Source: Octopus vulgaris (Eukaryota). From it: 64,000 nucleotides of DNA. The notes beneath the pieces are model-generated. The model had not been told where the DNA came from. It worked only from the letters and a program-made list of their open reading frames with translations, and searched no databases. The translations under genes and the position numbers were made by a program. How positions within the stretch are numbered: position 1 is the first letter of the stretch; every line of letters starts with the position of its first letter. This document shows, piece by piece, positions 8,634 through 62,560 of the stretch. Where the stretch lies: the NCBI GenBank assembly GCA_951406725.2, contig OX597821.1, positions 35,154,001-35,218,000 on the forward strand. Direction: 5' to 3'.

Positions 8634-8668
8634 TAGTCTTCATTAGCACAAGCGAAACCGGTCGACTA
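8634..8668 (+). ncRNA. Degenerate minimal hammerhead-like motif
   Basis: Stem I UAGUC/GACUA, GAAA, palindrome ACCGGU, GUC triplet; the 5' core has decayed to UUCAUUA. Confidence 0.35.
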
Positions 8669-9699
8669 CGTACATATCACATTCTATATATATATATATA
8701 TATATATATATATATATATATATATATATATATATACAATAGAAAAAAAACGAAATACAGGACAATAACACATCCAAATAGATAGACGATAAGAGGCGAA
8801 CAGGAAAAACAACGAATAGAGGGACAGGAAAAAAAGGATGGGTCGTAGTCGTCTCTCCTCCGTCAAGTTTCTAGATTGTCCCTACAGTTTCGGGCAGTTA
8901 CACGTGAGACTGTTCAAATATATAAATATATTGTCCAACATAAAATTTCATTGCATTTTCCTTCTTTTTATATTTTTCACTACAATTTGGTGCGCTGAAA
9001 AATTAATTTTTACTGAACCTTTAAACTATATATATGTAATATATATATATATATATATATATATATATATATATATATATATATATATATAGAGAGAGAG
9101 AGAGAGAGAGAGAGAAAGAAGGAGAAAGATATATATATATATATATATATTTGGTTATGTACATATACCGTATATTTATATATATACATACGCACATATA
9201 CACACGTATATAGGTGGGGTGAGATTGAGAGAGAGAGAAAGAAAAAGCGAGGGAAAAAGACAGAAAATGGAGAAAAGAAAAAAGTACTAAACATATGTTT
9301 ATACACTCCTAATTTAGATGGGATTTTTTGTTTAAACATCCATCCTAGCGTGTATGAGCAAGACTGAGTTTCTAAAACTTTTACAACATGGGAAATAAAT
9401 ATGAACAGCCAAGTTTATACTCGCAGCTTTCAGCAAAGGGTTTCTCTCTTTCTTTTTCTCTCTATCTTTCACTCTCTCTGTATGCTAATGTGCGTGGGTG
9501 CGCATGTTTATTTGGGTGTATGTAAAATTAAAAAAATTATATATGGCAACTGAATAGGTTTTTGCGTATATAATATAATGTAATAGAATACAATACAATA
9601 CAATGTAAAATGATATTGGATGATACAAAGCACACACGCACACACACATTCTCACACGCATATTCAGCAAATAAAACAAACTGACTGATCCTTTAAGAG

Positions 9700-9900
9700 A
9701 ATCAACCAACTGGTTGCAAGCTGTCTCATACCAGTGAGGTCAACGCAACACTCACGCTCAAGTCGAGCATGCGTATACCGGTGTCTACCACAAAAACGCC
9801 ATTGAGGATTCTGGGCCAAAGACATGCAACGGAATGAACACTACAGGGAAGTCAACTAGGCAGAACGCGAAACTTGACCACCAGAAAGAATAAGAGGTCA
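9700..9900 (+). pseudogene. Second possible Merlin transposase remnant
   Basis: SHTSEVN..TGVYHKNAIE(G)FWAK, needing a frameshift; similar to 6990-7110. Confidence 0.35.
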
Positions 9901-9925
9901 TCAGAATTATAACGAATCAAAAATC

Positions 9926-10368
9926 GGATCTTTTCGACTTGAACGGAAGTTTTTAACATAATTTCTAGGTAACTAAAAAATTTTAAACTTCGTATACTGG
10001 TAGAATGTGTTTATAAAACATCTTTTTCTCTTGGCTTTATTGAGAAAATTCTATAGTTTGTAAGATATTTGTTGTTTTTTTTCCTTCAATTTCTGCAATT
10101 TCAACCAATCACTGACGTATTTGAGGTAAAAAACATTCCGTGCCGTATGAATATGTCCCTCGTTTAAGAAACAGATTAGGTTTATTTACATTTGTGAAGA
10201 AAAAAAGATACCGTTCTCCCCACCCCTAACCCTAACCCTAACCAACCCTAAATAACCCTAACCCTAAAACAGTTTGAAATGCAATAGATTGATACTAGGG
10301 TCATAATTATGGGTGACAATTTCATATGACACCGCTAGAAAAAACTGCCGTTCAAACCGAAAAGATCC
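9926..10368 (+). mobile_element. MITE with ~29-bp TIRs and internal (CCCTAA)n
   Basis: Ends GGATCTTTTCGACTTGAACGGAAGTTTTT and AAAAACTGCCGTTCAAACCGAAAAGATCC; second copy inverted at 23757-24170; no TSD visible on this copy. Confidence 0.9.
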
Positions 10369-10371
10369 TTT

Positions 10372-10490
10372 CTGATATTATTGAATTTTGTGAACATTTA
10401 ATCATTTAGACATGTTGATCCTCATTTCGCCGATCATTTTTGATATTAATGAATTTTGTGAACATTTAATCATCTAAACATGTCATCTAC
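10372..10490. repeat. Short direct duplication (about 45 bp repeated at 68-bp spacing)
   Basis: TGATATTA(T/A)TGAATTTTGTGAACATTTAATCAT occurs twice. Confidence 0.8.
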
Positions 10491-59256: not shown

Positions 59257-59828
59257 TGGTAATAACGGAATTTTTTAGAAATTTCTGTCGACCTTTTTCG
59301 AGTAGCGTGCTTATTGTGATAAATTATATAGTTATAGACAATGTGTCTAATTTCGGCATATTTGGCATTAGAAATTTTTTCGTTTGCCCTCATTTATAAG
59401 TTGTTTATATATATATATATATTTATTTATTTATATACAGTATCCGTTTTAGTAGTAATGGTGTTGGTGGCAGTTGTGATTGTACTCGTGCTGGTGGTAA
59501 TGGCGCAGAGGTCTTAGCTACAATAATCTCGCTCACTTTCCATGGATAAATCAGCTCCATGTGTCGTGCGTTTTTATTTATACTGAACTGCAAAAGAAAC
59601 GCGTATTTTCAAGTGTCAGTTTTATGTGGTAAATTCTGAAAATTCATTTCGGGGATGTAAGTGAAAATATTTCAAGGTTTATGGCTGAGACCCAAATTGC
59701 TGGTAACTTTCAACTTGAATGCCGGCAAACAGTTGTCATGAAAACTGATATGCACGTACATCTCGTGGAGATTATGGAAATAAAAATCACCTTGAGCTAC
59801 GTTCCTGGCATTCGAAATGTGTCCACCA

Positions 59829-60206
59829 TGATATCTGGCCTTGCCGTGTTGAACTTTTTCAAGTTCCACCTAAAAAGAAAGTTGGGGCTAGAGAGAAGGT
59901 GTCTATCAGAATGCATGTTCAAAAAAAGATGGATGCGTGTTGCGTGGATGCTGGGTGTGAAAGGCCCTGCGTGAACACGCTATAAGGACTGCCGGGGGTG
60001 TCAGCTGACAAGGCAGGGCTGGTGGGGTCGGCAAACCTGTCTTTTAAGCTTCATGTGTCCTCCTATGTCTGTTATGTAAATTGTGTCACATTCGTTATTC
60101 CATTCGCATAAATTTTCAGTTTCATAACCTTCGTTTTTACATGACCCCAAAGATCATGTAGTACTGTCCCCTTCTATGTGTAGCCCCTTGTGTGCAATAA
60201 AGAAGT
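59829..60206 (+). mobile_element. 5'-truncated L1/Tx1-like LINE 3' end with 20-bp TSD
   Basis: TSD CATTCGAAATGTGTCCACCA at 59809-59828 and 60207-60226; ORF end FFKFHLKRKLGLERRCLSECMFKKRW; UTR ends AATAAAGAA. Confidence 0.8.
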
Positions 60207-60699
60207 CATTCGAAATGTGTCCACCAAGAGTTAGTGTCGTTATTAACGGTCAGTGTCGTTTGTTTGTATATTACAGTTGTTGAATTGTTGAGTATTGTTA
60301 CTGTATCTGTTTAATACACCGTTGTTTTACTGCTTCGTGGCGGTGTTGTTATCATTTTCCCCTTTTTTAGGTGGGGAAGCGCTTTTGGTATAACATAAAT
60401 ACTGGTTGTGAAAGGTTAAGTCTTTCTGACGTGGATTTGTTGGAGAGTGAATTAATGGAATTCTTGGATAACACAAAAGGTGGAGCTGTCAAATGGAAAA
60501 AGCATAATAAATGTTAACAAGAAAAGTATAAAATATTTTGCGTTACGGCCGTCGTTTCGAAAGAGGAGTCAAAATGTGAAATGCAGGGTTTAAAGAAGTT
60601 CAATGACCTGTTTAAAAGAAGGGGCACGTAATTGAGCTGCCCCCTCTTCGAAGAGTTACTCAGGATACGGTGACGAAAACAATAATATTTAAAACGTTT

Positions 60700-61375
60700 A
60701 TAGTCAAAGAGAAAAAAATAGATGTGAGAACAATGACCCAAATCGAAAGGTTCTTGGGACCCATCTGGTCAGAAATTACGTAGCTGGCCAGGTGTAACAA
60801 ATATGCTTCGGTAGAAGTGTGGTTTCAAACAGAGGAAATAGCCAGGCAACACTCCATATCCCTACTGAAGACGGATGAAATGACTATTCTTGGAAGGCGA
60901 ACTTCCAGAGTAAGGGTCCAAGAAACCCCACCAGAGGTGGATGTTGTCTGGCTGGTAGCGGCGATAAGATTCGGCTCAGAGGAGAGGATAACAATCCAAG
61001 CATCAAGATTACCAAAGCAAAACTGGCTAGAGCAAAGGCTGGAGACGATCATCCAGGGTGACCCGGAGGACATAGAGATTATTATGCACACTATATTGGT
61101 GGGTGACAAGAGATTAAGGGTAGTGGTGGAGGGCAGAAAGCCTCGATGTTTCATGTGTGGCCAGAAAGGCCACCTAACTGCATAATGCTCACCATAATGC
61201 CCACCTCCCGCAAAACACCGATGGTACCTCCATGGGTGAAGGAAACCGTACCACCTCCTCATACGGCGACAAATACAGAGACGAAGGAGAAATGTGAGGA
61301 GAAAGAGATAAAGGCACCAGAAGAGAACAAATTGACCAACGTCCCGAAGAGGAAAAGGAGAAAGAGGAGGAATGA
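60700..61375 (+). mobile_element. L1/Tx1-like ORF1 (gag-like) remnant with zinc knuckle
   Basis: ILVGDKRLRVVVEGRKPRCFMCGQKGHLTA* (CX2CX4H, last Cys lost), followed by a Pro/Lys-rich tail. Confidence 0.7.
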
Positions 61376-62360
61376 CCACTCCATGAAGTCATCCACCTGC
61401 AACACCAGCGTGTCAGCTTGCATGACCATTGGCACTGGACAGTGACCCATCAGCGACGACACGGTACGACGTCAACTGACCGCCAACAACCTGCGTTGTG
61501 GAGGCACATGGCCTAGTGGTTAGAGCAATGAACTTGCGGTCGAGGGATCGCGGGTTCGAATCTCAGACCGGGCGATGAGTGTGTTTATGAGCGAAACACC
61601 TAAGCTCCACGCGGCTCCGGCAGAAGGTAATGGCAACACTTCTGCTGACTCTTTCGCCACAACTTTCTCTCACTCTTTCCTCCTGCATCTTGCAGCTCAC
61701 CTGCGACGGACCGGCGTCCCGTCCAGGTGGGGAACCTATACGCCAAGAAACCGGGAAACCGACCCTTATGAGCCAGGCATGGCTCGAGAAGGAACAAAAA
61801 ATAACAACAACAACAACCTGCTCGAGAGCCAGTCCTCATCATCCGCTACCGTCTGGCACAACTACAGTGGGCTACACAACATCAACATTGGCAGCATCAA
61901 CGATGGAGGTCGATAGTCTTCTCTGACGAGAGCCGGTACTGCATTTTCATCTCGGCTGGCAGAATGAGGGTGTGGTGTTGGAGGGATGAACACTACAGAG
62001 ACGCATGTGTCATGGAGAAACCTCACATCGTCTCCTTCTTTGCGCGTCACCATAGCCATCATGATAATGCTCCTTCCCACACGACCAGAGTCACCATGGT
62101 CTTCCTGCGTGAGCACAACATCAGAACCATGCCATGGCCGGCTGTCATCCCGGATTTGAACCCAATTGAACACCTTTGTGATGAAATCCAGAGACGGGTG
62201 AACCAGGTGGTCCCAAGGCAGATACTCGTGTGATACTGGAGAAAGCTTTCCTAAGGGTGTGGGCTCAGGTGGCAATGGCTTTTGTGACCCACCTCATGCA
62301 CTCCATGTACCGACGGTGTATAGCCGTTTTGAATACCCAAGGAGGGCATATACGGTATTG
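61376..62360 (+). pseudogene. Tc1 (DD34E) transposase remnant, internally deleted and SINE-interrupted
   Basis: ISDDTVRRQL, WRSIVFSDESR, HDNAPSH..PDLNPIEHL (34 residues between D and E), SMYRRCIAVLNTQGGHIRY*. Confidence 0.9.
61495..61810 (+). mobile_element. SINE family C, tail type 3, 11-bp TSD
   Basis: TSD CAACAACCTGC at 61484-61494 and 61811-61821; near-identical to 55267-55579. Confidence 0.94.
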
Positions 62361-62419
62361 AATATGTCATGTCCTACACACACACAAACAAACAAACACA
62401 CACACACATACAGTTGACA

Positions 62420-62560
62420 TTTACAGAAAATCAAAAGACTAAGACAGAGGTATAAACAACAAGTATGTGTATTAGTTTGACGCTTTACCATTCGAGCCGA
62501 CACTCTTCAGCAGAAAGAAATAAGAGAAAATTTACGGAGAGAGAATAAAAAAGCTTGTGT
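62420..62560 (-). mobile_element. Diverged copy of the 50560 Penelope-like repeat with decayed hammerhead (62483-62517)
   Basis: CUUU-CUGCUGA-A-GAGU.GUCG.GCUC-GAAU. Confidence 0.5.

What the first reader, a model, noticed from the sequence alone, without database searches (positions are those of the whole stretch)
8634..62517. About ten minimal, dimer-type hammerhead ribozyme motifs from at least five repeat families
Seen: one architecture recurs with unrelated stem sequences: stem I, a CUGANGA-like core, stem II, GAA, a short palindrome replacing stem III, an NUH triplet, then stem I. Intact cores: 59204-59256 (+) and 35169-35203 (-). One core change: 27758-27792 and 28181-28225. Core variants: 31094-31148 and 31027-31078. 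Decayed: 50656, 62483, 14863, 8634. The palindromes differ (ACGU, AGUACU, AUCGGU, AAUAUU, ACCGGU) but stay self-complementary. Most sit in 200-300 bp ORF-less blocks abutting (TA)n. Established: Penelope-like elements carry minimal type-I hammerheads that cleave as dimers. Inference: this genome hosts a diverse set of small non-autonomous, ribozyme-bearing retroelements, and the palindrome could act as a family-specific pairing code for dimerisation.
Basis: partly seen in the sequence, partly recalled or inferred. Interest (0 to 1): 0.75.

Follow-up and report, generated by a model that had tools for sequence, protein, structure and literature searches.

The report
Hammerhead ribozymes in Penelope retrotransposon ends
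These ten motifs are minimal hammerhead RNA motifs, five of them shown to be end pieces of Penelope-like jumping genes (a known arrangement) and the rest likely so; some families carry swapped core base pairs, and most copies likely came from uncut, capped RNA rather than from independent self-cutting mini-elements.

Summary
The ten motifs are real minimal type-I hammerheads from seven repeat groups. Three have 1,187-4,938 exact genome matches (controls 0-1). Families A, C and D (5 of 10 sites) run upstream into reverse transcriptase plus GIY-YIG, so they are Penelope-like element (PLE) ends, a published arrangement. C is a young, intact 4,271-bp tandem element.

I found natural G3-C8 and A3-U8 in no paper searched, but Lünse et al. 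was not held. This scan noted both earlier on other DNA of this genome.

Short copies start upstream of the ribozyme, often with an extra G (43 of 70 D copies), and 0 of 146 start at the cut site. They are likely reverse transcripts of capped, uncut leader RNA, not cleavage products.

The family-specific pairing code is weakly supported: 14 palindromes in 19 families, ACGU and ACCGGU each shared by three. Cleavage is untested.

The parts
8634..8668 (+). Family E motif, decayed copy of an A3-U8 core family, palindrome ACCGGU; another repeat lies in its (TA)n tail
14866..14908 (-). Family F motif, U3-A8 core, imperfect palindrome; arm 14722-14905 (-) with an inverted arm 14907-15004 (+)
27684..27896 (+). 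Family A end piece (U4C subfamily); motif 27758-27792, palindrome ACGU
28031..28241 (-). Family C end piece, 97% identical to the young 4,271-bp PLE; motif 28181-28225, U4C core, palindrome AGUACU
30945..31079 (-). Family D left arm, G3-C8 core intact, 5' strand of stem I mostly missing, short 3' end
31081..31286 (+). Family D right arm, starts at the family's common 5' start, G3 with C8 changed to U, long 3' end (tail); motif 31094-31148, palindrome AAUAUU
35066..35247 (-). Family A end piece with canonical core; motif 35169-35203
50548..50715 (-). Family A2 (related to A), decayed core; motif 50655-50690, palindrome ACGU
59133..59396 (+). Family B end piece; motif 59204-59256, canonical core, palindrome AUCGGU
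62408..62550 (-). Family A2-type decayed copy; motif 62483-62517

Best explanation
The ten motifs are minimal type-I hammerheads in short repeat copies; five are terminal-repeat (pLTR) pieces of Penelope-like retrotransposons that encode RT and GIY-YIG and the other five likely are too, and most copies are likely short reverse transcripts of the capped, uncut leader of the element's RNA. Mechanism: the element is likely transcribed from a start 20-80 nt upstream of the ribozyme. Its protein nicks (TA)n and starts reverse transcription inside the RNA at the end of the pLTR (shown in vitro for an anole PLE, inferred here). It copies back through the uncut ribozyme to the cap, leaving 150-300 bp pieces, often as two inverted arms with two different 3' ends. 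A lone motif would be inactive. Cleavage would need a second motif in the same tandem transcript, or the element's protein. The palindrome would serve that pairing, not family recognition. Swapped 3-8 pairs suggest the active fold has been kept by selection on the parent elements.
For: SHOWN: A continues through about 1 kb of CA-rich DNA into GIY-YIG, a CX4CX2C linker and RT (L061, L065). D continues into a 530-aa RT-like plus GIY-YIG frame (L147). C lies in 4,271-bp tandem units with 0 differences and a 775-aa RT-GIY-YIG frame. Fixed 3' ends, (TA)n targets and inverted arms. 5' starts cluster upstream of the core: D 62 of 68 within 23 nt, A 21 of 30 at 62-85 nt; C 6 of 25 at 38-42 nt, 30 nt below a TATA-like box with CCAAT boxes upstream. 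The base before the D start is G in 43 of 70 copies where the element has C (A 4, T 4, C 19; hand count of the first 100 rows, 30 run-on copies set aside; flank G 17.5%). 0 of 146 copies start within 3 nt of the predicted cut. 3-8 is Watson-Crick in 19 of 19 family representatives, in four forms. FROM PRINT: internal RT start, unprocessed RNA as main substrate, protein-assisted ribozyme, partial rescue by C3G/G8C (PMC11167929); low activity, as dimers only (PMC4209133).
Against: No coding partner was found for A2, B, E or F. The RT domains score weakly: C 29.5 bits against a Pfam cut-off of 29.6; no RVT_1 hit for the A and D frames. The cap reading rests on one family; in C only 1 of 6 clustered starts shows the extra G. 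43 of 68 D copies begin a few bases downstream of the proposed start, so stalling at a structure could add to the cluster. The 146 copies come from loci fetched around ribozyme-bearing copies, which under-samples copies lacking the core. The 19 representatives were chosen by me with descriptors that need stems I and II and partly fix 3-8, so those columns are partly circular. The youngest C subfamily carries U4C and a U-U pair at 10.1-11.1, which sits badly with strong selection for cleavage.
Confidence: 0.68

Rival explanations
1. Short copies are self-propagating non-autonomous elements: they keep an internal promoter, make short capped RNAs and borrow PLE protein in trans.
For: Most D copies are short and share one 5' start with a cap-like G. 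No coding partner found for A2, B, E, F. The Drosophila Penelope promoter is internal (PMC2377424). Retrozymes are argued to derive from pLTRs (10.64898/2026.07.22.740005).
Against: Short copies of A, C and D match the ends of coding elements at about 90-97%. In C the TATA and CCAAT motifs lie upstream of the clustered start and are lost from short copies. Internal RT initiation explains short capped copies without separate elements.
Confidence: 0.2
2. The motif no longer cuts in most families and is kept as a folded protein-binding or regulatory RNA element, or simply hitchhikes.
For: U4C is inherited in subfamilies of two distant families, including the youngest intact element. B mostly has an A-C mismatch at the first stem I pair. 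Templates were uncut. Ribozyme mutants do not impair insertion in vitro.
Against: The 3-8 pair, which belongs to the active fold, is compensated in four forms across families. Central palindrome bases, which can pair only between two motifs, are complementary in 16 of 19 families.
Confidence: 0.2
3. The palindrome is a selected family-specific pairing code that stops different families from cross-activating.
For: 14 distinct palindromes among 19 families. Most different palindromes mismatch in a modelled duplex.
Against: ACGU is shared by A, A2 and G, ACCGGU by E, F2 and H, AGAACU by F and L. Any two different perfect palindromes mismatch by construction. The B-E duplex (-5.7 kcal/mol) beats B-B (-3.1); ACGU is -1.7, AAUAUU -0.2, AAUU +2.2, too weak for discrimination in trans. 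The neighbouring D arms are on opposite strands and cannot pair in one transcript.
Confidence: 0.08
4. The blocks are retrozyme-like unit-length products of self-cleavage and circularisation.
For: One public run of unconfirmed type assembles the 4,271-bp C unit as a closed loop, which tandem DNA explains equally well.
Against: No window copy is a head-to-tail short tandem. 0 of 146 copies start at the cut. A cap-like G argues for a linear template.
Confidence: 0.05

Closest known systems
Minimal type-I hammerheads in pLTRs of metazoan Penelope-like elements (Cervera and de la Pena 2014, PMC4209133; read parts 1-2 of 4, supplement file 2 searched, file 1 not searched)
   Same: Short stem I, extra base between 9 and 10.1, mostly G10.1-C11.1 (15 of 19), palindrome in place of stem III, many families per genome, mostly single copies, opposite-strand pairs, a U3-A8 variant.
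   Different: G3-C8 and A3-U8 families and inherited U4C subfamilies are not in the text read. 5' starts with a cap-like G were not described there.
Small dimer-cleaving hammerhead variants of Penelope-like retrotransposons (Lunse, Weinberg and Breaker, PMC5785218; not held, title seen in a reference list, content recalled)
   Same: Reduced stem III, PLE association, cleavage as dimers.
   Different: Could not check whether its alignments already hold G3-C8 or A3-U8 cores or cephalopod copies; this limits the novelty claim.
Poseidon PLE of the green anole, PAc (Frangieh et al. 2024, PMC11167929; read parts 1-2 of 4)
   Same: AT-rich targets, two internal RT start sites giving an optional tail, uncut RNA as template, a pLTR hammerhead in which C3G/G8C partly rescues cleavage.
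   Different: There G3-C8 is a laboratory mutant; here it is the natural state of about 5,000 exact copies. The elements here have the CX2-5CxxC linker of Neptune/Nematis type.
Neptune/Nematis-type EN+ PLEs (Craig et al. 2021, PMC8557442; passages and supplement search)
   Same: C-terminal GIY-YIG, CX2-5CxxC linker, (TA)n targets, 5'-short copies, inverted arms, tail at one end.
   Different: Clade not assigned by a tree here; D is only 22-29% identical to A and C in short blocks.
Animal non-LTR retrozymes (PMC7229834, passages; 10.64898/2026.07.22.740005, parts 1-2 of 5)
   Same: Short, non-coding, type-I hammerhead, PLE-related.
   Different: Those are head-to-tail tandems with mostly canonical ribozymes and circular RNA; these are single or inverted pieces with minimal ribozymes that do not start at the cut.

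Membership tests
Minimal type-I hammerhead of metazoan PLEs | Core CUGANGA ... GAAA with NUH, closed by stems I and II | tested here: met
   Exact at 35169 and 59204. Other families keep it with a swapped 3-8 pair or U4C. Four window copies are decayed.
Minimal type-I hammerhead of metazoan PLEs | Palindrome in place of stem III | tested here: met
   16 of 19 family representatives fully self-complementary; imperfect in F, L, N.
Minimal type-I hammerhead of metazoan PLEs | Extra base between 9 and 10.1; G10.1-C11.1 | tested here: met
   G-C in 15 of 19. Extra base in A, A2, D, F; absent in B, C, E.
Minimal type-I hammerhead of metazoan PLEs | Lies in the pLTR of an RT plus GIY-YIG element (families A, C, D) | tested here: met
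Minimal type-I hammerhead of metazoan PLEs | Lies in the pLTR of an RT plus GIY-YIG element (families A2, B, E, F) | tested here: inconclusive
   No PLE frame seen within 1.5 kb upstream of 30 B loci or around two E copies; A2 and F not followed upstream.
Minimal type-I hammerhead of metazoan PLEs | Self-cleavage as a dimer or with protein help | not testable with these tools
   Folding only: the dimer fold is the predicted minimum for C and E; A and D favour other pairings.
EN+ Penelope-like element, Neptune/Nematis type | RT, CX2-5CxxC linker, C-terminal GIY-YIG | tested here: met
   Linkers read in A, C and D frames; GIY-YIG Pfam hits (A below the cut-off).
EN+ Penelope-like element, Neptune/Nematis type | Tandem units, inverted 5'-short arms, optional tail, (TA)n targets | tested here: met
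EN+ Penelope-like element, Neptune/Nematis type | Placement in the clade by RT phylogeny | not tested
   No reference set fetched; pairwise BLASTP only.
Non-LTR retrozyme | Head-to-tail short tandem with a ribozyme in each unit; unit bounded by the cut site | tested here: not met
Non-LTR retrozyme | Circular RNA intermediate | not testable with these tools
   Only assembled contigs of unconfirmed type were available.

The most novel reading that the evidence does not exclude
PLE families of one animal genome have run a natural mutagenesis of the hammerhead active site: all four Watson-Crick pairs at 3-8 and repeated U4C, each fixed in a family. Their many short copies act as a fossil 5'-end map, showing that capped, uncut leader RNA is the usual template. 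The ribozyme would then be kept for a rare, gated cut (tandem transcript or element protein), not for making the transposition template.
Probability: 0.4. Interest if true: 0.65.

Novelty: new variant of a known kind. Interest (0 to 1): 0.42.

Why it matters
What PLE hammerheads do is an open question. This genome offers matched natural variants (C3-G8, G3-C8, U3-A8, A3-U8, U4C) and a young intact tandem element whose protein and RNA could be assayed together. The in vitro claim that uncut RNA is the template gains genomic support from copy ends. Standard CUGANGA descriptors miss the swapped families, so counts in other genomes may be too low. The basic arrangement is already published, which caps the interest.

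Tried and rejected
First descriptor lacked the extra base before stem II and found 1 site; corrected. Rfam showed no hammerhead among 150 listed matches. The generic repeat finder was swamped by microsatellites. A DNA search for family C returned nothing, not even the window's own copy, so it was uninformative; a pattern worked. The loose non-C3/non-G8 pattern gave 104,878 matches against 78,295 in the control, so only its rows were used as leads. RNA: no RNA holder listed; four runs laid were contigs of unconfirmed type and show no ends or strand. I first read the D start as a splice acceptor; I dropped this because copies add a single G rather than a shared upstream exon. E copies 5.6 kb apart are a local duplication without a PLE frame. 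The B row was mis-parsed and redone. The within-family D alignment is nearly invariant and says nothing on covariation. Novelty searches: hammerhead + octopus + ribozyme, G3-C8/C3-G8 (35), C3G/G8C (49), A3-U8/G3-C8/U3-A8 (64), pLTR/promoter/capped (79), Penelope + octopus (90), supplement searches; none showed a natural G3-C8 or A3-U8 family. Three relevant papers were not held (PMC5785218, PMC1986816, PMC147498), one supplement file of PMC4209133 was not searched, and bioRxiv supplements were not seen.
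Full report
OBSERVATION. All ten sites are in the sequence. A strict minimal type-I descriptor finds 35169 (-) and 59204 (+) against 0 in 30 dinucleotide shuffles; one core change gives 3 against 0; two changes give 5 against mean 0.87, maximum 5. 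The decayed sites stand on family homology, not on the descriptor. In 520 kb of evenly spaced genome samples, 4 intact motifs occur against 0.15 in 20 shuffles. 41 copies of 20 representative families occur in the same sample, about 80 per Mb, so the window (10 in 64 kb) is roughly twice the average. The genome is 2.8 Gb in 227 contigs. That it is octopus-like is my recall of its repeats plus earlier scan notes; no call names it.

FAMILIES. The sites fall into seven groups. A (27758, 35169): 1,187 exact matches, control 0. A2 (50655, 62483), related to A. B (59204): 3,347 first-look candidates, 40 scored, the best at 93-96%. C (28181): 1,833, control 1. D (31027, 31094): 4,938, control 0. E (8634): 18, control 0. 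F (14863): one close relative and a larger related family. A generic C3-G8 pattern gives 40,763 matches against 4,605 in the control, counting nested rows.

THEY ARE PLE ENDS. Long A copies run through about 1 kb of CA-rich DNA into GIY-YIG, a CX4CX2C linker and an RT fragment 35% identical to C. Long D copies run into a 530-aa frame with an RT-like YVDD motif, a CX3CX2C linker and GIY-YIG. C lies in head-to-tail 4,271-bp units with 0 differences, coding a 454-aa frame and a 775-aa RT-GIY-YIG frame; the window copy is 97% identical to it. The window D pair is two inverted arms with a short and a long 3' end, the layout described for PLEs (PMC8557442, passages). No coding partner was found for A2, B, E or F. 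Minimal hammerheads in PLE repeats, their palindromes and weak dimer activity are published (PMC4209133, parts 1-2 of 4; PMC6765202, passages; PMC3088659, passages and section 8).

CORE STATES ARE INHERITED. D reads GUGAACA in 94 of the first 100 rows (hand count): a G3-C8 pair. E has both A3 and U8 in 15 of 18 copies (hand count; two are one local duplication); the window copy has decayed. F and several other families have U3-A8. Across 19 family representatives, 3-8 is C-G in 9, U-A in 8, G-C in 1 and A-U in 1. I picked these from pattern hits, so the stem and 3-8 columns are partly circular. U3-A8 is known in nature. G3-C8 appears in the papers I saw only as a laboratory rescue (PMC8495972, passage; PMC3884650, passages; PMC11167929). 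Searches and supplement search 94 showed no natural G3-C8 or A3-U8, but Lünse et al. and Przybilski and Hammann were not held. U4C marks a subfamily of A (12 of 30 unselected copies, with a linked flanking change) and the young subfamily of C (64 of the first 100 rows). That U4C occurs in a viroid and still cleaves is recalled. Most B copies have an A-C mismatch at the first stem I pair; 3 of 29 have the window's form.

HOW THE SHORT COPIES ARISE. 62 of 68 D copies start within 23 nt upstream of stem I and 6 run on; 21 of 30 A copies start 62-85 nt upstream of the core. In C a TATA-like box at -71 and CCAAT boxes at -177 and -160 predict a start near -41; 6 of 25 copies start at -38 to -42. 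Among the first 100 of 1,183 D matches, 30 run on upstream; of the other 70 the base before the start is G in 43, C (the element's own base) in 19, A in 4 and T in 4 (hand count; flank G 17.5%). A smaller, overlapping set gave 11 of 19, or 7 of 13 after dropping junctions with an inverted arm. An extra G is the expected trace of an RT copying a cap (established for LINEs; recalled). 0 of 146 copies start within 3 nt of the predicted cut; 13 start at scattered places downstream (the sample is biased towards core-bearing loci). An anole PLE starts reverse transcription at two internal sites, uses unprocessed RNA and has a protein-assisted hammerhead (PMC11167929, parts 1-2 of 4). Together these point to short cDNAs from the end of the leading pLTR back to the cap. 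This step is inferred. Transcription from solo copies is not excluded, since the Drosophila Penelope promoter is internal (PMC2377424, passages).

THE PAIRING CODE. Palindromes do vary and stay complementary: 14 kinds in 19 families, 16 fully self-complementary, central pair complementary in 16 of 19. That supports pairing between two motifs, as published. It does not show a family code: ACGU, ACCGGU and AGAACU are shared by 3, 3 and 2 families; different palindromes mismatch by construction; B pairs better with E than with itself; and the common palindromes give -1.7 to +2.2 kcal/mol. Predicted minimum-energy dimers match the catalytic dimer for C and E only.

AGAINST MY READING. No cleavage or RNA data. 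The cap signature is strong only in D. Four groups lack a coding partner. U4C in the most active element suggests weak or no need for cutting.

EARLIER NOTES. After my own searches, scan notes showed that G3-C8 and all four 3-8 pairs had been noted on other pieces of this genome. They agree but are not independent support. The eight notes listed for the cap query did not describe the cap signature.

VERDICT. Real and mostly of a known kind. The natural core variants and the 5'-end signature make it a new variant with good bench tests. Interest 0.42.

Noticed in passing
L258 (G000:C1:27840500-27850400), also L260-L262: Young PLE in identical 4,271-bp tandem units at several loci. Its 454-aa and 775-aa frames overlap by 91 nt in the -1 frame beside A and T runs, a candidate programmed frameshift.
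   Followed up: partly
window 8737-8912 (-): A different repeat sits in the (TA)n tail of the E copy. It has GAAAC ahead of a UUGACGGA stretch, possibly the reverse-order hammerhead of earlier scan notes. Not tested.
   Followed up: no
window 8560-8625: A 3' fragment of family G lies inside the E copy. G is very common among the first rows, often as inverted pairs 200-400 bp apart.
   Followed up: partly
window 12870-13384 and 15848-16362: 515-bp inverted repeat, 98% complementary, 2,463 nt apart, enclosing the F site.
   Followed up: no
window 49880-50086 (-): Remnant similar to the N-terminal part of a PLE protein (E 3.6e-5), within duplicated blocks at 47201-50439.
   Followed up: no
window 61805-62230 (+): DDE_3 transposase fragment with stops.
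   Followed up: no
window 6496-6907, 8077-8310, 10743-10922, 12623-12836, 15140-15480: Abundant 184-bp repeat family, partly tandem; it looks tRNA-derived, a label I recall rather than tested.
   Followed up: no
L086, L280, L114, L266: Families N and L (C3-G8) and F and F1 (U3-A8) share stem sequences and a downstream GUGUGUU-like motif with D (G3-C8), suggesting swaps within one lineage. No tree made.
   Followed up: partly
L145, L116: A short D copy lies directly downstream of a different PLE coding frame, suggesting PLEs insert in or beside each other.
   Followed up: no
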